Assembly: GCA_017499595.2 (NCBI GenBank)
Contig: CM038998.1
Coordinates: forward strand, 1,550,001-1,614,000
Length of the DNA: 64,000 nt
Direction of reading: 5' to 3'
From: Psilocybe cubensis
Taxonomy: Eukaryota
Shown here: in pieces, positions 53,376 to 63,242 of the stretch
Numbering within the stretch: the stretch's first letter is position 1
Layout of the letters: each line of letters starts with the position of its first letter
Program-made: the position numbers and the translations under genes
Notes under the pieces: generated by a model
Told to the model about the DNA's origin: nothing
The model's database searches: none
What the model saw: the letters and a program-made list of their open reading frames with translations, nothing else

Positions 53376-54957
53376 TCAGTCCGATAAATCGTTAGAAGGG
53401 TCATCCAACAGACAGTCAGCATAGTCCTGCATCATTTAATTTAGCGAGAGTGAGTTACATGAAGGGTATCAAACTTACATCAAGGTTCACCTCTTGGGTG
53501 GTGACTGGAACTAAAGGGGGCACGGCACAAAGTACTTTCATCGGAGACTTTGCCCCAGAAAGGTGGGGATATGGTGCGACCGTGTGATTAGACGATGGAG
53601 GGTCAGCTTTGGTTTTTGTTGGACCACTCTTCTGAGGGGATGGCAATGCAGGCTTCCCCTTATTTGCTTTGTCTGGGGAACTGAACGACTGAACAGAACT
53701 AGAGGCGGGAGGAAACAGAGGCGAAATATGGAAAGGTGACGAGGTCTGATTTGTAGCCAATGTAGAGTGAGTGCAAGCTTTCAGTGAACTCTGGAGAGAA
53801 GCTCCTTTGCTCTTGATCGACTTTGAGGGTGTTGATGTCGTTGATGAAAGTTTTTGCATTTTGGCCGGAGATTCGGACAGGTCTGCATCATCTCCCTCTA
53901 CCATTTTATCGGGAGCTAAAACCGTCAACTTCGTGATAGGAGTGTGAGGATCACTGGGCATCTCCATTAACTTGCGCTGAAGTTGTTTTTCGATTGCTTC
54001 CCAAGGTCGTTCATCGACTCGAGGTTTGACAGCGCCTTGGTTTGCCATAAAATCTGCGCCATCATTACCAATATCTCCACTGTGCCCTTTGACGTATTCT
54101 AATACAACCTTCTGTCCCATTTTCCCTCGAAGATCAAGATGAGCCGAAATACAACGTATGATTCCGGCGTTTTTTACATCGCTACCCGTAGAGCTTTTCC
54201 AGTTATTGTTGCGCCATGTGTTGATCCAGGTTCGGAAGCCTTTTAAAGAGTGTAAGTGCTTGCTGATATGAAAAAGGACCAATGAACTGACACTGGATAG
54301 AATACTGGGAGTCTGTTCTAATCAACAAAGGTTTTTTCGTCTGGGGTGTACTTTCTAAAACGCGCAGTATTGCCTACAGAATGTTAATCGAAAGACACGA
54401 CATAAATGAGATAGACAAACTATTAATTCTGCGCGATTATTGGTCTGGTCACCTGGACAACGCTCTGCAATGTTTCTACAGAGAATTAACATAATCATAG
54501 ATGAATAATTGAATGTGTCCTTACCTTGGGTCGTTATGCCCCCACCATACACCCACACCTGCGTATGATCCTTCTTTACCGTTGCCTTTGCAAGCACCAT
54601 CACTATAAACAACATCCCAACCAGTGACATCGTCCACTTGTGGACCAAAGTCTAACTCTCGCTTTTTTGAAGTGGAATCGCCGGGAGCATGGCTTGTCGT
54701 GATATTGGAAGGACCCGCTTCTGCGTTGCTTGATGATGGTGAATCTTCCGATATAAAACCCTCTGCCTCTGCCAAAGTTGAAAACTTCTTATGTTCGGCT
54801 CCAGGGAATTCGTTTATCTGCGCTTTACACTCAGGCCTAGCTAAGCAATGAGTATCATTAACATCAATAAAAATGAGCTTACTAACCAGGTTTTGTATAT
54901 CCCTGGTATTCTTCCTTTTCGTACAGCATAGTACCCTCCAATGCCTTTGGGTGCCAT
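53376..54957 (-). CDS. RNH1: Ribonuclease H1 (hybrid-binding domain + RNase H domain + low-complexity C-tail)
   Basis: GYYAVRKGRIPGIYKTW (HBD), VYSDGACKGNG, QTNNRAEL, TDSQY, YVKGHSGDIGNDGAD catalytic D/E/D/D. Confidence 0.93.
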
Positions 54958-55185
54958 CTTTAAGGAATGTTTGATCAAAGATTTAGTAACGACCGGCAAA
55001 TGGATGCGTAGTAAGACAGATGGGTATATACGCCTTCTCAGCGAGAGAATTCGTAGAAATCTGTCCAGTTTCGTGGGTTCGAGGTGAAGCGAGCAAGTTG
55101 AAGTAGGGTTGAACGTTGAACCGCTGAATAGTGGTTGGTGGTTGAAGATCAACTACACGATGTAAGTAATTATTAATTAAAATAT

Positions 55186-55489: not shown

Positions 55490-58400
55490 TCAACTGTCTC
55501 CAAACATAATTTTGAGGTTTTGGATGCTTTCTGGATCAGCTTTCCCACTTCCTCGAAATGCTTCGTTAACAATCGCCGTTTTACGTTTCTGGATTTGTAA
55601 GATGCGGTTCTCGATAGTTTTTGACACCTATGCGATGTGTGAGGTCTTCGAAAATGAGATGAAGGCAGTATACGGCATACGATAAAGTGTTTTACATATA
55701 CTGTTTTGTTTTGTCCTATTCTGTGCACGCGGTCGATAGCTGACAACGTTTGTTGTGTGCATTGTTCACTACAAGGTGCAAACATGCACTAACCTTGATT
55801 TTCCGTGGCGGAGTTCCACCAACAATCCATCTAGCAAATATCAGAATTATTCTTCCAGGATCAAGCAATATTTTCGTACCATGAACACATAATTTGCATT
55901 TGTGAGCTATAATTGAATCAAAACGACGATGAAGACAGATCATATAGTAAAAAACCCACATTCAGCCCAACGCCACCAGCTTTGAGACTAACCACCAAAA
56001 CTTTTGGTTTGCGAGAGAAGGATTTGAACTCATTGACTGCGGCGCTCTTCTTCTTCACATCCATCGTTCCATCAAAGCGGTACTGATCAAACCTTTCTCT
56101 TTCTAATGCGACCTGGATAAGGTCGAGGAAGCTTGTAAATTGTGAGAAAACTACAGCTCTGAAGCATGGGTCTTGCTCCCTTAGTTGCCCTGTAGTATCA
56201 ATCACTCAGAAAAACGGGATATCAAATGTAAAAATTTCCCTTACTCAGATTCCGGACCAGAGCGTCGAGTTTTGTTGAAGTTTGAAAGTCGTTCTTTCTC
56301 AACATAACCGGCGTATCAGAAGACTGTGAACTTGACATCCCCTGGTTCTTGCCTTTCTTCACAATCTCTACCAAGTCGGTGCTCTATGCAAAATTGGTTT
56401 AGACAAATATGGCTCGTTCAAAGGGAGATATACCTTTATGGGCCCTTCTGAGCAGGTTGGGCAGTTAGCGACTTGCCGCTTCTCCTCACAGATACCAATG
56501 TACGATACAATGCAATCTTTGCAACTATAAACACTCTTATTAGTGCAAATTGTCTTCGAAGTACTTGTAGACATACAACTGGTGCATACAACGCGGAATG
56601 ACCATCGGGATTTCCATCTCGTTGAAGCAGATAGGGCATTCGGCAAGATCGTTGCCACTAAGGTTTGTAACGAAATGTTCAACGAATGCACTCGAATTGC
56701 CATCTCCTGCTTGCTCGCCATCCGCAAACTTTTCAATGAGTTCGTTGATTGTGACCTTTTTGCCACCATCCTGTGGAAACGTGGAGTGTTCTTCATCTTC
56801 TTTGCCAAGGACAAGGCTAGGATGAAGCACTGCTCTCCGCAACCTAGCACATAAAATTAGAGGGGCAATAATTTAACTTCTACAATTTCAGTACCTCATA
56901 AGCATTGCCAAAATGTGAGTGTAATTTTTGCTGACCAACCCTTTCGCATCAAGGCGCTCAAAGTCCTTCTTGGCAGAAAGATATATGGAGTCGTAAATCT
57001 TTCTTTCCAACGGCGAAAATTCGAGCTCTTCGACAATTACCTTCCATTTTGATCAGTCAAACAACATTTAAAAAACACATAACAGCATTACCTCTTTAGG
57101 TGGCAACTCTACAATCATCTTTCCATCCTGATCCCGCATATTCTTCTCTCTTCGTAAAAGAATACTTTCGAGAATGACCTGTACAACCTCGATTGCCTTT
57201 GGGTCGCGAGACAGAAAGGGAATTGTAATGAATCTAGAAAACATGATCCCCAAGTAGTGCAATCAAATGAAAGGACTACTCACGAACGGAAAAATGAAAA
57301 CTCCGACCATGGTTTAAAGTCAAGGAATTTCCTGGCGACAAAACCATGAGCACAAGTACTGGAGAAGAAACTTCACACCCACAGCAACGAAAAAAGATCT
57401 TCTAGTTTGTTTACGATGGGTGTCCCTAGAAACCGACAAAAGTCCTTCAGTTGTATAGAATTGGGGGAAGAAAAGGTACCTGTAACGGCCCATCTCCGTT
57501 TAGCATTAAGTGCATAAACAGCTTTTGCTGTTTTACTTGTCCTCGATTTACATGCATGTGCCTCATCGAGGATTATCCTCAGCCAACAGACTAAAAGCCA
57601 TAAACACACTTTTGCTGTATCGGGATCAAAGTTACTCACTTTCGAAGATCGGCGATTTGACTTTACTGGAGCGATCCATTTTTGCGTGCTCAGAGGCAAG
57701 AACTCCGTAAGAAGTCACAACTACTTTGATAACATTGCCGCGATCGTCTTCGTCACATTCCAAAAGGTCCTCGAGGTCCTGTCGATTTTGTCCATGCCAG
57801 ACTATGACTTGCATTCTACCAGGTTTACATGATCGTTGAAGTTCTTCCGACCACTGAGTGAGTAGTGATGTAGGGGCAACTACTAATGTGGCAGACGCTG
57901 GTTGAGATGTTTGTTGTTTCCTTTGATTGACTGTACGGAAGGCGCTGTTCAATTTCAGCTGTTTTGATTTTACTACCTGTGCAGGTTGTTCTGGTTCTTC
58001 TAAAGGAGGACTTGACTGAATAAGCGCTGATAGCATTATTGTTTTTCCCATTCCCACTTCGCAAAGGATGAACTAAGAATTGCGTATTTGTGAAAAGAAG
58101 AAATTCAAACTTACTTTCTACATAAGGGTAAAAATCCGTAGTGTGAAATATGTGAACATCGCCTCACCGTCTCTAAAGGACATCAGTTTGGGGTCAATGA
58201 AATAAAACGATGCTTACGCCAAAATGCCGCCTTGACAATTTCTTTCAGCCCTAGGGAAGTCCAATCTCAATTCACCTGAATATGGATTGAAATAAAAAGG
58301 CTTTTCTTCGGCGGTAAGATCTATCGTCTCGCCGTCCATAATTGGCTCTCCTGGAAAGGCATATCTAATGCAGACATTAACGACAAGTTCGATTCACAGT

Positions 58401-60042
58401 ATTCTCCTTACTGGTTCCACAATGGATGCATTGACGAGGCTTCACGTGCATCCATGGTCCCTGTTTCAAGAGAGTGCATCCATCTATTGGGATGGATTAT
58501 GCTTTGTAAGAAATAATCTTATGGTTTTTGAAAGAATGAACCCACCGCAATGCCTGTTTCTGATAGCCACGGAGTGTAAGGCTGAATGAATCCGATGGTT
58601 CCATTTCAGCCATTGTCCGGTCGTTATGTTGTGCCCTGCGACTTGATTCAGGAAGCTATCCAGAGACAGATTAGGCGACAGTCACCTCGAATAGATAGCG
58701 TCAATTTCATTTTTGGTCAGTTCTTCAGAATCATCTACTTCAATCTCCTCATCATCCCCCACTATTTCTTTGACTTTCCTTACAGGCCGCTTGGCCAGTT
58801 TTTGAAGATTTTCTTCATGTGACATCTCATTTGTTTGGACATTGGCGCCTGCTTGAGGTCGAAGACCAAGTACTTCAAACATTTTCACGACTGCTTGTTT
58901 TCGTTCACGGAGTATTCTGCATTTGGATGTTATTATGTGCAATGACTGTAAAAAATCGGCGTCTTACGTCTCTTCCTCTGTCTCAAGGCCTTCATTGAAT
59001 CCTAGATGCACTGGATCATCATTGCCAAAGGTTCTCTTGAGTGGTTTGAAGGCAGAAGCAATCAAATACATGTGTAGAGTTACAATGAGGCTGGCACCTG
59101 TTGTCAGTTTCTCAGGACAGTCAGTCATAACACCTCTAATTTCAACAATATCTTGGATATATAAGCTAAAGCGAAAGAGAATAGAAATCTAGACCTACTG
59201 TTTTCCAGCAGTTTCGCGATCCACCACGAAGTGTCCGTCGCCAGTCTGCCAAACTCTTAAGGATTGTCAATAACCGTCATATTTCAATGAATACATGACA
59301 GACCAAAGCCCTTATTATTGACTAAACGCACGATTGTATCGCTTTTTTTCTTCTTCGAGTTGTTGAATTTTACAGGTTGAGGTTTAAGCATATTGGAAAG
59401 GGTAATTTGTCGTTTCCCGTCGGTTTTCTTTTTGCTACTTGAGGACGTTGAGGCCTCAGCTTTATCTGAGCTCGCATAATTCTGCTGTTCTCTTTTGACG
59501 TGGATAGAGTCATTGATTTTCACATAACCCCTACCAGAAACAGTACTCCAAGCGTTCGGAACAACGAGCTCGCCTATGTAAGTGGGCATAAAGGCATCGA
59601 TGACCTGGGATGTTGGTGTATCGGAGACAAAAGAAATAGAGCACTCCTTCGCGGAAGATATGTCCTTCTTCTCTTTAGATGAGGAAGTGACCTCTTCGGG
59701 ATCGATTTTCTTTTGTTTCTTTCGAGACAAACCCGGATCCTCAATTATTTCGATGTCGGAATCATTGTCGAAAATCTGGCGTTTTTGCGGAACTACATTA
59801 TCTTCTTCTTCGTATATATTCATGTTTTTGTCATCATCGTCATCGTCATCCAGGAATAATGGCTCGTTGAAGGGAGAAGATCGCGACGTTGAAGGAGTCT
59901 GAGGAGCGGTGGGAATACTAGGACTCCGAGTCTCCACATTCAAAGGGATATTCTCATCGTCTACTTCATCTTCATCGTCTGACCCAGCAAAAAAGAGACC
60001 AGGAGGAGGGGATTTTGGTATTGTAGCATTGGAGTCTGTCAT
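55490..60042 (-). CDS. RAD5: DNA repair protein Rad5 (HIRAN + Snf2 helicase + RING), multi-exon with micro-exons
   Basis: HIRAN-like region (WSTVSG..IVRL..EFGRL), [95 protein letters not shown]. Confidence 0.95.
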
Positions 60043-60216: not shown

Positions 60217-62161
60217 ATGCAACGTGGTCTACCGATGGTAAGCAGCGCTTTACATTCGCCGGATGTGTACTCATATCGTTTTTAGCAACCGACTGTCGTG
60301 TTACTCAAAGAGGGTACGGACGCCTCACAAGGGAAGCCGCAGTTACTCTCCAACATATCGGCATGTCTCGCAATCGCAGAGACTCTGTCCAGCACCCTTG
60401 GTCCAAGGGGTATGGACAAGCTCATTGTGAACGAAAGGGGCGAAGCTCAAATCACGAACGATGGTGCTACAATTCTGAAATTGTTGGATATAGTACATCC
60501 TGCAGCGCGGACACTTGTCGACATTGCCAGGGCTCAGGATGCTGAGGTGGGAGATGGGACTACTAGCGTGGTTCTTCTAGCTGCGCAATTGTTGAAAGAA
60601 GTTAGGACCTTGATCGAGGAAGGTGTCAGTCCTCATATCATCATGAAGGGTTTCAGGCAGGCATCGCAGCTAGTACGCGTCATTTTCTTTTTTGTCTTTT
60701 GCATATCCATACTGATGACCTGCAGGCGCTTAAACGTATCAAAGAACTTCAAATTACTGTTGATAAAACGGATCCAGAGTACGAATATCATTTTCCCGAT
60801 GTCCCCACCACTCATCGATGAACTTTAGACGTTTCCGTTCTCTTCTTTTGAAATGCGCGTCAACTTCGATGTCTTCGAAACTCATTCACTCAGAAAAGCC
60901 ATTTTTCTCAAAGATGGTTGTTGATGCCGTCGAATGTTTGGATCAAGATGATCTGGACGAATCCCTCATCGGTGTCAAGAAGGTTGCTGGGGGCGGTTTG
61001 CAGGACTCTCTGCTTGTCAAGGGAGTCGCGTTCAAAAAAACCTTTACCTATGCTGGCGCTGAACAGCAACCAAAACATTTTGTCGATCCCCTTGTTTTAT
61101 GTTTGAACGTCGAGCTGGAGCTCAAGGCCGAAAAAGACAACGCAGAAGTGCGCGTGGATGCTGTTTCGGATTATCAGGCCATTGTAGATGCCGAGTGGGA
61201 GATTATTTATCGCAAGTTGGAAGCGATTGAAAAGACAGGGGCCAAGGTGGTTCTCAGCAAGCTCCCCATCGGCGATTTGGCTACGCAATGGTTTGCAGAC
61301 AGGGATATTTTTTGCGCTGGACGAGTGGCCGCTGGAGATTTACGACGTGTTGTTCAAGCTGTTGGGGGCGCAATTCAATCGACCTGTTCGGATATTGGTA
61401 GAGAGCACCTTGGAACTTGTGGACTCTTCGAGGAACGTCAGATTGGAGGCGAGCGCTACAACATCTTCGAAGGTTGTCCCAAGGCCAAAACATGTACCCT
61501 GATACTCCGCGGGGGTGCCGAACAATTCATTGAAGAGGTTGAGAGGAGTCTCCACGATGCTCTAATGGTTGTTAAGAGAGCCATCCGTAACGGCGAAGTT
61601 GTCGCTGGTGGAGGAGCTATTGAAGTAAACATCACTTTCCTTCTTTCCTTCTATCCAATTTTGACAGCATTGCTTATTTTAGATGGAACTTTCAGCTCAC
61701 ATCCGCAAGCATGCCTTGAGTATACCGGGCAAACTACAGCTCGTCATTGCGGCCTTCGCAAAAGCTCTTGAAATTATTCCCAGACAAATCTGCGACAACG
61801 CTGGTTTGGACTCCACTGATATTCTCAACAAGCTGCGGATGAAACATGCTAATGGCGAAGTCTGGTACGGTGTTGACGTTGATGGAACTTCTGGTGTTCG
61901 TAACAACATGGATGCATTTGTTTGGGAGCCAAGCTTGGTGAAGATAAATGCTATTACCAGTGCAAGTGAGGCAGCGTGTTTGATTCTTAGTGTCGATGAG
62001 ACTGTCCGCAATCCTCAAAGTGAACAGGTGGGTAACTTATGGTACACTCTTCTGGTCTCTCTGATATTCATCTATTTTAGCAAAATCCCGGACCCAAAGC
62101 TCCACCAGGAACTGCTCAGCGAGCACTCAGAGGCAGAGGACGGGGAATGGGACGACGGTAG
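60217..62161 (+). CDS. CCT7: Chaperonin CCT/TRiC subunit eta
   Basis: [68 protein letters not shown]-terminal RGRGRG. Confidence 0.96.
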
Positions 62162-63242
62162 ACAAGTTAGCCGGCCCAATTGATAAAATACAACTGGACG
62201 TAAGGGTAGCCAATTTTCTATTACCTTCAATGATAATCAATGATAAAAGTAGTACTCGTTTCAGTTCATCCGTTGACAATGTCAGCCTAAATGTGCTTAA
62301 TGTCTTTCTTGTATCTATCGTAAACATATTTCAAATCAATAGCTAAAGAGATCCTCAATGTTCGAGATGGTCATGTGTTCGTGGCAAGTATTGTATTTTC
62401 TAGGTGACACCGCCTCCGTGGCACCTAGTTTCGGTTATAACATCACATAAAACATGCCAAAACATGTCGAAATTATTATTAAAGGAAGCAAATCTCAATT
62501 TTGACTCAACTTGAATGCCAATGACAGTACTATTAATTTCAAGTACTGCCTCCGTATCGTGGTCTGTCTACGAGAGACTACTGCCTTGGTAGGTGCCCGT
62601 GTGTGTGATGTAGTAGTAACGCCTCGAATTTGCAAGGATGTTATCACTTCCGAGTGACGATTGCCATACGCACCAGCTGTTGTTGATCTATTGACAAATG
62701 ACGTTAGCTTATGTGTACTCTCATGCTGATATGCAACATGCAGTCGAGTCGTCGTATTCGCTTCGGATTCTCTGCAGTTTTCAGACTGAACCGGTAAACA
62801 AAAACAACTGACTGTGACGATCATGGGAACTTAATCTGGTCACTTGAGCATCTGGGATAATAGCACCAAATAGCGTTCCCACTTCATTCTCTTCTGAAGG
62901 TGATATTGCGGCTGACCGACGCGTTTGCGAGGTCAAGCTATTTTTAGATTTGTTATCACGACACAGCTGCCCAATATGGAAGGTTGAGTGCCCAATTTAG
63001 AAGCTCTGTTGCGCAATCGAAGAGCCTGAAAACGCAATATAGACGGTATAACACGTACTTTGAGCAACATCGCTCACGCCGGTTTGATATCGACCCCAAA
63101 TCCACCCACATGTTCATTGACCTATTTTTAGAGATATGTACCACTGTAAGATAGATGATAAATAGACAGAAGCTCCATCCTGATTCGATGGTACTGTCGT
63201 TGTACTGTCGCTCTTGTTTATCGTGTCTTCGATCTAGCCATA

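What the first reader, a model, noticed from the sequence alone, without database searches (positions are those of the whole stretch)
58057..58217. RAD5 helicase motif I is built from a 5-nt and a 3-nt micro-exon
Seen on the minus strand: ggc ggc att ttg gc|GTAAGC..TTTAG (intron 58173-58217)|AGACG (exon 58168-58172)|GTGAGG..TGTAG (intron 58118-58167)|AAA (exon 58115-58117)|GTAAGT..CGAAG (intron 58057-58114)|tg gga atg gga aaa aca. Joining all pieces gives GGILA-D-E-M-GMGKT, the canonical Snf2-family motif I (established). Inference: skipping only the 3-nt exon stays in frame and gives GGILADVGMGKT, an altered ATP-binding loop, while skipping the 5-nt exon frameshifts. This could be a splicing switch on ATPase activity, and gene predictors would probably miss it.
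Basis: partly seen in the sequence, partly recalled or inferred. Interest (0 to 1): 0.78.

Follow-up and report, generated by a model that had tools for sequence, protein, structure and literature searches.

The report
Two tiny exons in RAD5 gene
In this mushroom's DNA-repair gene RAD5, two exons only 5 and 3 letters long supply the middle of the ATP-binding motif; they are spliced into the RNA, are conserved across mushroom-forming fungi and are missed by most automatic annotations, but nothing shows that they act as a switch.

Summary
On the minus strand, RAD5 motif I is split as GC | intron 45 nt | AGACG | intron 50 nt | AAA | intron 58 nt | TG. Only removal of all three introns gives GGILADEMGMGKT. 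A spliced RNA-derived contig of the same organism carries exactly 8 letters between 58218 and 58056, fitting AGACG+AAA. The arrangement is old. 57 of 64 metagenome RAD5 loci, picked only by the flanking exon, have it. These loci and the window make 38 lineages, and the micro-exons vary only at the three synonymous positions (NGAYG, ARA). Annotation mostly fails here. Of 120 relatives only 21 read ADEM and 24 read ADV. The near-identical Psilocybe cubensis protein omits the whole P-loop. The "splicing switch" has no support. All 12 long entries from non-NCBI sources, 9 of them on cDNA-sized contigs, read ADEM, and all 35 ADV entries are genome annotations. Verdict: a real, constitutive, conserved tandem micro-exon pair. 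It is a new member of a known kind (plant and Coprinopsis micro-exons) and matters mainly for annotation.

The parts
55490..60042 (-). RAD5 coding region (start codon to stop), about 20 or more short introns
   Evidence: tblastn of P0002 (Psilocybe cubensis RAD5): residue 1 at 60042, last residue at 55493. The last ORF ends with its stop at 55490. P0002 has HIRAN, SNF2-related, RING and Helicase_C domains. 14 plain CT..AC joints of 47-55 nt lie along the gene in RNA-derived contigs.
58218..58364 (-). 147-nt exon ending ...GGC GGC ATT TTG GC ([11 protein letters not shown]...CQGGIL + first two letters of Ala)
   Evidence: Sequence. The X1 contig resumes at 58218 after the joint. The acceptor cattag|A at 58365/58364 was read and fits P0002's ...WNQYAFPG.
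58173..58217 (-). intron 1, 45 nt, GTAAGC...TTTAG
   Evidence: Absent from the X1 RNA-derived contig. An intron sits at the same position in 57 of 64 related loci.
58168..58172 (-). micro-exon 1, AGACG: third letter of Ala, the Asp codon, first letter of Glu
   Evidence: The three letters shown between the two sides of the X1 joint (TCT on the + strand, AGA on the minus strand) are its first three letters (table 5c). It reads NGAYG in all 38 lineages.
58118..58167 (-). intron 2, 50 nt, GTGAGG...TGTAG
   Evidence: Absent from the X1 contig. Across lineages it is the longest of the three in 36 of 38 and has the weakest donor.
58115..58117 (-). micro-exon 2, AAA: last two letters of Glu, first letter of Met
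   Evidence: The 8-letter count in X1 record 5 and the single mismatch at the exon edge in X1 record 5 and X2 record 10 fit its inclusion. It is ARA in all 38 lineages (27 AAA, 11 AGA).
58057..58114 (-). intron 3, 58 nt, GTAAGT...CGAAG (uncommon AAG acceptor)
   Evidence: Absent from the X1 contig. An AAG acceptor at this intron occurs in 1 of 38 lineages, the window itself.
57640..58056 (-). 417-nt exon starting TG GGA ATG GGA AAA ACA (rest of Met, GMGKT, onward to ...SPIFE)
   Evidence: donor GAA A|GTGAGT at 57640/57639. SNF2-related domain, E 4.6e-14. Matches solved RAD5 6l8n, E 3.9e-08.

Best explanation
These are two constitutive, tandem coding micro-exons (5 nt and 3 nt) in the RAD5 gene of a Psilocybe-like agaric. 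Three short GT-AG introns (45, 50 and 58 nt) interrupt the codons Ala-Asp-Glu-Met just before GxGKT. All three are removed, and the 8 retained letters restore the canonical Snf2 motif I, GGILADEMGMGKT. The arrangement was inherited from an early ancestor of the mushroom-forming fungi (Agaricomycetes) and is kept by purifying selection on the encoded Asp-Glu. It persists simply because losing it needs a precise intron deletion. Shown: the sequence, the mature RNA form, the conservation and the annotation failures. Inferred: because a 3-nt or 5-nt exon is too short to be recognised across the exon, each short intron is recognised on its own (intron definition). The likely order is outside-in. 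Introns 1 and 3 have uniformly strong donors and go first, fusing each micro-exon to its large neighbour. The longer, weaker-donor middle intron then goes last, between two normal-sized exons. I give this order about 50%.
For: Sequence and frame. Uniqueness: 1 match against 0.00 expected.

RNA: X1 and X2 contigs are 99% or more alike to the window and carry 14 plain CT..AC joints of 47-55 nt that the collinear X3/X4 contigs lack, so they derive from spliced RNA. X1 record 5 (356 letters, depth 15.2) lies on 57738-58061 with 1 other letter. It then has TCT on neither side and continues on 58218-58246. That makes 8 letters between 58056 and 58218, where TTTCGTCT (the + strand of AGACG+AAA) is expected. 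X2 record 10 ends at 58060, also with 1 other letter.

Conservation: 64 loci were found using only peptides of the flanking exon. 57 have GC|GT..AG|NGAYG|GT..AG|ARA|GT..AG|TG, and 2 more are cut upstream but show both micro-exons. In 38 lineages (clusters at 90% nt identity, window included) all encode LADEMG. The only variable micro-exon positions are the three codon third positions. Nearest named relatives of the loci belong to genera I place in Agaricales, Boletales and Russulales; the orders were checked only for Scleroderma and Dentipellis. One group is Thelephorales-like.

Transcript-like database entries: 12 of 12 long entries from non-NCBI sources read ADEM. 9 of them sit on 3.4-4.2 kb contigs, too short to hold the introns.

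Splicing-order inference: donor G at +5 in 38/38, 23/38 and 38/38 lineages for introns 1, 2 and 3. Intron 2 is the longest in 36/38, with median 68 nt against 51 and 52. Passages read in PMC8378409 say micro-exons cannot use exon definition for steric reasons and rely on intron definition.
Against: The tool does not print the five contig letters laid on 58057-58061. Their identity (CGAAA on the minus strand) is inferred from the letter count and the single unlisted mismatch, not read directly.

X1 and X2 are labelled RNA only as a guess; the spliced joints are my evidence. Both come from one study.

Contigs drop minor isoforms, so 'constitutive' rests on absence of evidence plus database transcripts from other species.

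The 38 lineages are related, so counts of intron length and donor strength are not independent events.

The branch-site part of the steric argument did not hold up. A CTRAY motif lies further from the acceptor in intron 2 (median 28 nt against 11.5). But the motif-free AG-exclusion zone is no longer than in intron 1 (20 against 18 of 38, p 0.44) and only weakly longer than in intron 3 (25 against 12, p 0.026).

The window itself is an exception to 'intron 2 longest' (50 nt against 58).
Confidence: 0.9

Rival explanations
1. Regulated switch. The 3-nt exon is sometimes skipped on purpose, giving an in-frame GGILADVGMGKT protein with an altered or disabled ATPase loop but intact HIRAN and RING parts.
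For: Skipping a 3-nt exon is in frame by construction. ADVGMGKT still fits the generic Walker A pattern [AG]-x4-G-K-[ST] (recalled consensus, my reasoning). A fungal micro-exon switch exists in Trichoderma Xlr2 (PMC11121469, abstract only). The contigs laid cannot exclude a minor isoform.
Against: No skipped joint is listed in X1 or X2. 12 of 12 long entries from non-NCBI sources read ADEM. All 35 ADV entries are NCBI genome annotations, as expected when software cannot place a 3-nt exon. The G|TG that would make Val is already fixed by the Glu and Met codons, so its conservation says nothing for a switch.
Confidence: 0.06
2. The mature RNA uses some other splice pattern at this spot, for example a linker such as ADEV, ADGM or ADAM as in a few annotations, and the canonical ADEM reading is only approximately right.
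For: The five contig letters at 58057-58061 are not printed. If the record's one mismatch lay elsewhere, they could read CGAAG, giving ADEV. Annotated relatives include ADEV (1), ADGM (2) and ADAM (1) among 120. L052 really does encode ADAM with only two introns.
Against: ADEV would need splice sites without GT or AG in the window. Any mismatch away from contig ends would have been listed in table 3, and none is listed between 57738 and 58056. X2 record 10 independently shows one mismatch in the 4 letters past the exon edge. All 38 lineages give ADEM with canonical GT-AG sites.
Confidence: 0.02
3. Chance look-alike or decayed gene. The true product lacks motif I, as in the annotated P. cubensis protein P0002, which joins GGILA to AFRTVNQ.
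For: P0002 is annotated that way. 13 of 120 annotated relatives have no GMGKTI at all.
Against: The RNA-derived contig runs from the GMGKT exon through the 8 letters into the GGILA exon. The pattern occurs once against 0.00 expected. There is synonymous-only variation in 38 lineages. The P-loop exon scores as SNF2-related domain.
Confidence: 0.01

Closest known systems
Conserved, misannotated coding micro-exons of land plants (PMC8831610; passages read)
   Same: Internal exons of 1-15 nt inside conserved protein regions, with fixed position and phase across species. They are usually missing from reference annotations. Adjacent pairs occur (5 nt + 12 nt in Peptidase M1 genes). They are lost when reverse-transcriptase-mediated intron loss merges them into a long exon, as L015 appears to show here.
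   Different: This case is in fungi. Both neighbours are ultra-short (5 + 3 nt) and separated by one 50-nt intron. Together they encode the two acidic residues directly in front of the Walker A glycine-lysine-threonine of an ATPase.
Micro-exon catalogue of Coprinopsis cinerea from long reads (PMC12230235; passages read)
   Same: Same fungal class. 1,165 gene models have an internal exon of 15 nt or less, and 27 exons of 3 nt lie in 26 genes. Omission breaks gene models.
   Different: The passages I read name cytochrome P450 genes, not RAD5. The passages do not address class-wide conservation or the tandem arrangement. The older NCBI Coprinopsis entry P0035 reads ADGM.
Ultra-short exons needed to assemble fungal P450s (Fusarium CYP621A 1-nt exon, PMC12940212; search listing and start of abstract only)
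   Same: A tiny exon is required to restore a conserved protein, and annotation misses it.
   Different: Different gene family and phylum, and a single exon rather than a tandem pair.
Regulated micro-exon switches (Trichoderma Xlr2, PMC11121469, abstract only; animal neuronal micro-exons, PMC8378409 and PMC12871342, passages)
   Same: A very short exon whose inclusion changes a functional protein region. The same steric problem arises for the spliceosome.
   Different: In those cases both isoforms are observed and depend on condition or cell type. Here only the inclusion form is seen.
RAD5/HLTF subfamily of Snf2 ATPases (solved RAD5, 6l8n/6l8o)
   Same: HIRAN, SNF2-related, embedded RING and Helicase_C domains. 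The motif I sequence is canonical once the micro-exons are joined.
   Different: Nothing at the protein level. The peculiarity lies only in the gene structure.

Membership tests
RAD5/HLTF subfamily of Snf2-family ATPases | SNF2-related N-terminal ATPase domain plus Helicase_C | tested here: met
   P0002 (99% identical to the window exon): PF00176 E 3.4e-52, PF00271 E 6.5e-20. The window exon 57641-58054 alone: PF00176 E 4.6e-14.
RAD5/HLTF subfamily of Snf2-family ATPases | N-terminal HIRAN domain and a RING finger between the two ATPase lobes | tested here: met
   PF08797 HIRAN at residues 163-291, E 1e-11. PF00097 RING at residues 841-885, E 6.3e-07, between SNF2 (428-782) and Helicase_C (930-1044).
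RAD5/HLTF subfamily of Snf2-family ATPases | Intact motif I (Walker A) ...ILADEMGxGKT | tested here: met
   Met only after joining both micro-exons. The mature RNA form is supported.
Conserved constitutive coding micro-exons (15 nt or less) | Internal exon of 15 nt or less bounded by GT-AG introns | tested here: met
   5 nt and 3 nt exons. The introns are GTAAGC..AG, GTGAGG..AG and GTAAGT..AG.
Conserved constitutive coding micro-exons (15 nt or less) | Letters present in mature RNA | tested here: met
   X1 record 5 has 8 letters between 58056 and 58218, of which 3 are printed (TCT on the + strand). The remaining 5 are inferred from the count and the mismatch.
Conserved constitutive coding micro-exons (15 nt or less) | Same position, size and phase in other species, with coding-type substitution pattern | tested here: met
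   57 of 64 loci and 38 lineages. The exons read NGAYG and ARA, and only third codon positions vary.
Regulated (alternatively spliced) micro-exon switch | Both inclusion and skipping isoforms present in RNA | tested here: inconclusive
   Only the inclusion form appears in X1/X2 contigs and in 12 of 12 long entries from non-NCBI sources. Contigs cannot show minor forms.
Regulated (alternatively spliced) micro-exon switch | Isoform ratio changes with condition (for example DNA damage) | not testable with these tools
   No raw RNA reads or condition series were available.
Recursive splicing / nested (twin) introns | One intron removed in steps, with no exonic letters kept from the inner boundaries | tested here: not met
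   8 letters from the inner boundaries are kept in the RNA-derived contig and are under coding constraint.

The most novel reading that the evidence does not exclude
Skipping of the 3-nt exon is used, at a low or condition-dependent level, to make a natural separation-of-function Rad5. The in-frame ADVGMGKT form would keep the HIRAN and RING (ubiquitin-ligase) parts but have an altered ATPase loop, so splicing would tune which branch of DNA-damage tolerance is available. A second, less dramatic possibility also remains open. The conserved strong-weak-strong donor pattern may encode an obligatory outside-in order of intron removal, so that neither micro-exon is ever recognised as an exon.
Probability: 0.05. 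Interest if true: 0.75.

Novelty: new member of a known kind. Interest (0 to 1): 0.45.

Why it matters
1. Database quality. In the sets I retrieved, most annotated Agaricomycete RAD5 proteins are wrong exactly in the catalytic P-loop. Only 21 of 120 are canonical, 24 lack one residue, 13 lack the motif, and the rest carry translated intron or other errors. Anyone inferring from them that these fungi have ATPase-dead or divergent Rad5 would be misled.

2. It is a compact, class-wide benchmark for gene predictors and spliced aligners. The rule NGAYG ... ARA between GGILA and GMGKT could be used to repair hundreds of models without RNA data, as was done for plants.

3. It is a natural test case for how a spliceosome handles exons of 5 and 3 nt that sit 50 nt apart. 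There is a conserved asymmetry of the three introns that suggests an order of removal.

4. The variants date intron gain and loss. One is an Auriculariales-like locus without intron 3. The other is a locus that lost all three introns at once.

Tried and rejected
Whole-genome scan for paralogues with the same structure: no genome is held for this window.

Sequencing-run search: no RNA holder listed on record. Two runs guessed to be RNA proved spliced when laid.

Special RNA fold across the three introns: none. MFE -37.9 kcal/mol, z 0.46, and 130 of 200 shuffles fold at least as well.

Distal branch site upstream of the 3-nt exon, as in vertebrate micro-exons (PMC12871342): a CTRAY motif suggested it, but it is present in only 26, 18 and 20 of 38 lineages for introns 2, 1 and 3. 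The AG-exclusion-zone proxy did not confirm it, so I dropped it as evidence.

Other exon combinations in the window: skipping the 5-nt exon or both exons shifts the frame, and retaining intron 1 gives a stop. The upstream TAG at the CTTAG of intron 3 would give the wrong frame (read).

Recursive or twin-intron reading: rejected because the inner letters are kept.

Pfam on the 48-residue upstream exon alone: no family.

Print search for this case: 'rad5' + 'microexon' gave 31 papers, and none of the 10 listed concerns fungal RAD5 (the term also matches RAD51). 'micro-exon' + 'basidiomycete' gave 7 papers, none on RAD5.

The review PMC5863539 is not held.

The supplements of PMC12230235, which may list the 26 genes with 3-nt exons, are closed.
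Full report
WHAT IS THERE. On the minus strand the window carries a RAD5 gene (CDS about 60042 to 55490). The annotated Psilocybe cubensis RAD5 protein P0002 is 99% identical to the exon I queried and maps along the whole gene at 94-100% identity in clean segments. P0002 has HIRAN, SNF2-related, RING and Helicase_C domains. The only solved-structure match of the P-loop exon is RAD5, 6l8n/6l8o. P. cubensis is an agaric (Agaricales).
- ...GGC GGC ATT TTG GC, ending at 58218
- GTAAGC..TTTAG, 58217-58173, 45 nt
- AGACG, 58172-58168
- GTGAGG..TGTAG, 58167-58118, 50 nt
- AAA, 58117-58115
- GTAAGT..CGAAG, 58114-58057, 58 nt
- TG GGA ATG GGA AAA ACA, from 58056
The flanking exons are 58364-58218 (147 nt) and 58056-57640 (417 nt).

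Joined in a script, the pieces read GGILADEMGMGKT. Without the 3-nt exon they read GGILADVGMGKT. Without the 5-nt exon, or without both, the frame shifts. With intron 1 retained there is an immediate stop. The composite pattern occurs once in the window against 0.00 expected from 100 shuffles.

IS IT SPLICED THAT WAY? The run search listed no run on record as RNA. When laid on the gene, the contigs of X1 and X2 are all 99% or more alike to the window. They carry 14 plain CT..AC joints of 47-55 nt along the gene, whereas X3 and X4 run collinear with the DNA. So X1 and X2, both from one study, derive from spliced RNA of the same organism.

X1 record 5 (356 letters, depth 15.2) lies on 57738-58061 with one other letter. 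It then has three letters, TCT, on neither side, and continues on 58218-58246. That makes eight letters between 58056 and 58218. The + strand of AGACG+AAA is TTTCGTCT, and the genome at 58057-58061 reads CTTCG. An aligner would therefore extend five letters with one mismatch and leave TCT, which is exactly what is reported. X2 record 10 stops at 58060, also with one other letter. No difference away from contig ends is listed in this exon.

The five letters laid on 58057-58061 are not printed, so their identity is inferred. A skipped 3-nt exon would give five letters, not eight. A retained intron would give no joint. The evidence points the other way.

CONSERVATION. A metagenome scan was seeded only with two peptides of the downstream exon (GKTIM[LVI]S[AS]L and [PAS][STH]ATL[IV]VAP[TA]), so it was blind to intron structure. 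It returned 64 loci:
- 57 have the full GC|GT..AG|NGAYG|GT..AG|ARA|GT..AG|TG arrangement: 56, plus L056 once the pattern allowed a TTG Leu codon.
- L021 and L061 are cut upstream but show both micro-exons.
- L027 and L063 begin downstream of motif I, so they are uninformative.
- L064 is another Snf2 gene without introns here.
- L052 has the 5-nt exon but no third intron, and reads ADAM.
- L015 has no intron at all in motif I, although it has intron-like interruptions on both sides of this exon.

After collapsing at 90% nucleotide identity there are 38 lineages with the full pattern, the window included. All 38 encode LADEMG. In the eight micro-exon letters, five never vary. The three that vary are exactly the third codon positions of Ala (A/C/G/T), Asp (T 23, C 15) and Glu (A 27, G 11). 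That is the signature of coding sequence under purifying selection. The introns differ in length and sequence.

Nearest named relatives of the loci belong to genera that I place in Agaricales, Boletales and Russulales. I checked the order only for Scleroderma and Dentipellis; the other placements are recalled. The most divergent group with the full pattern (L056-L062) is 69-71% identical to Thelephora proteins (Thelephorales). L052 is closest to Auriculariales proteins at 57-63%. ADV annotations, the footprint of a missed 3-nt exon, also occur in Botryobasidium (Cantharellales), Ramaria (Gomphales) and Gloeophyllum (Gloeophyllales). That suggests, but does not prove, that the pair goes back to near the base of the class.

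ANNOTATION. I classified the 120 best relatives of the downstream exon by the link between GGIL and GMGKT:
- ADEM: 21
- ADV: 24
- no GMGKTI at all: 13
- no GGIL within 40 residues upstream: 16
- insertions of 5-34 residues, which look like translated intron: 33
- other short links (ADGM, ADEV, ADAM, AYV and so on): 13

P0002 joins GGILA directly to AFRTVNQ and so drops 38 residues, including the whole Walker A motif. P. cyanescens P0001 carries a 19-residue link between GGIL and GMGKT, which looks like translated intron.

By contrast, every long entry from non-NCBI sources reads ADEM: P0018, P0075, P0091, P0099, P0104, P0136, P0159, P0163, P0172, P0177, P0203 and P0209, 12 of 12. Nine of them encode 1007-1242 residues on contigs of only 3.4-4.2 kb. 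Those contigs cannot hold about 1.1 kb of introns, so they are cDNA-like. All 35 ADV entries (24, 11) come from NCBI genome annotations.

HOW IT WORKS. The best-supported reading is plain constitutive splicing of three short introns. Exons this small cannot be recognised across the exon because splice-site complexes would collide, and they depend on intron definition (PMC8378409, passages). Short fungal introns suit that mechanism.

The comparison adds one conserved feature. The donors of introns 1 and 3 have G at +5 in 38 of 38 lineages, against 23 of 38 for intron 2. GT at +5/+6 occurs in 29, 8 and 28 of 38 for introns 1, 2 and 3. Intron 2's donor scores lower than intron 1's in 26 lineages and higher in 3, and lower than intron 3's in 22 and higher in 2. 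Intron 2 is also the longest of the three in 36 of 38, with median 68 nt against 51 and 52.

For scale, by my count from the donors printed, 11 of 14 other RNA-supported introns of this gene have G at +5. So the outer donors are unusually uniform rather than the inner one being abnormal.

I infer an outside-in order. The outer introns go first, which welds each micro-exon to its large neighbour. The middle intron then goes last, between a 152-nt and a 420-nt exon, so no micro-exon ever has to be defined. This is inference, at about 50%. The lineages are related, and the window itself departs from the length rule. A distal branch site in intron 2 looked attractive and has a vertebrate parallel (PMC12871342), but it failed a motif-free check. 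There is no special RNA fold.

THE SWITCH IDEA. Skipping a 3-nt exon is necessarily in frame, and ADVGMGKT still fits the generic Walker A pattern (recalled). So the idea is not absurd, but nothing supports it. Only the inclusion form is seen here. All transcript-like relatives read ADEM. The database ADV forms are explained by software that cannot place three letters. Contigs cannot exclude a minor isoform, so I leave it at about 5-6%.

COMPARISON AND NOVELTY. Conserved, constitutive, misannotated micro-exons are established in plants. That work includes adjacent pairs and loss by reverse-transcriptase-mediated intron loss (PMC8831610, passages). In the agaric Coprinopsis cinerea, long reads revealed 1,165 gene models with exons of 15 nt or less and 27 exons of 3 nt in 26 genes (PMC12230235, passages). 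A 1-nt exon in Fusarium P450 genes (PMC12940212, listing) and a micro-exon switch in Trichoderma (PMC11121469, abstract) are also in print.

My searches found no description of the RAD5 case. The Coprinopsis gene list is in supplements I could not open.

I therefore rate this a new member of a known kind. It is real, neat, class-wide and practically important for annotation, but conceptually expected.

Noticed in passing
L015:1-1171: A RAD5 locus (best match Gelatoporia P0059, 66%) reads straight through GCAGACGAAATG with no intron in motif I, yet its frame is broken by intron-like stretches on both sides of this exon. It is most simply genomic DNA of a lineage that lost all three introns at once. 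A partly spliced transcript is not excluded.
   Followed up: partly
L052:100-250: An Auriculariales-like RAD5 locus (57-63% to Auriculariales proteins) keeps the 5-nt exon (GGACG) but has no third intron, and its joined reading is ADAM rather than ADEM. The ORF-style entry P0213 (...PEMGMGKT) likewise reads Glu-Met contiguous with GMGKT. Either intron 3 is younger than introns 1 and 2, or it was lost there.
   Followed up: partly
window 58118-58167 and the same intron in 37 other lineages: Across the 38 lineages the middle intron is the longest of the three in 36, and has G at +5 of its donor in only 23, against 38 for each flanking intron. This may reflect a fixed order of intron removal.
   Followed up: partly
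window 58057-58061: Intron 3 of the window ends in AAG, not CAG or TAG. It is the only one of 38 lineages to do so at this intron. A TAG 17 nt upstream lies in a CTTAG that may be the branch site.
   Followed up: no
window 53458-54982 (minus): Directly downstream of RAD5 lies a ribonuclease H1 gene (RNase_H E 5e-10; RNase H1 N-terminal domain E 1.7e-08). Two annotated relatives (P0070 Candolleomyces, P0081 Amanita) carry RNase H and RNase H1 N-terminal domains fused to RAD5. These look like merged gene models of the same neighbour pair.
   Followed up: partly
window 60286-62183 (plus): Upstream of RAD5, on the other strand, is a TCP-1/CCT chaperonin subunit gene (Cpn60_TCP1, E 3.1e-41 and 1.1e-73 for two exons).
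   Followed up: no
window 56013, 56799, 58408: Small differences between runs and the window: G>T at 56013 in both RNA-derived runs, T>C at 56799 in both DNA-like runs, and one letter left out at 58408 (in the intron upstream of the 147-nt exon) in X4. They look like strain or allele differences.
   Followed up: no
window 55794-55830 and 55880-55906 (minus): The same gene has further small exons of 37 nt and 27 nt, supported by joints in both RNA-derived runs. Short exons are a general habit of this gene.
   Followed up: no
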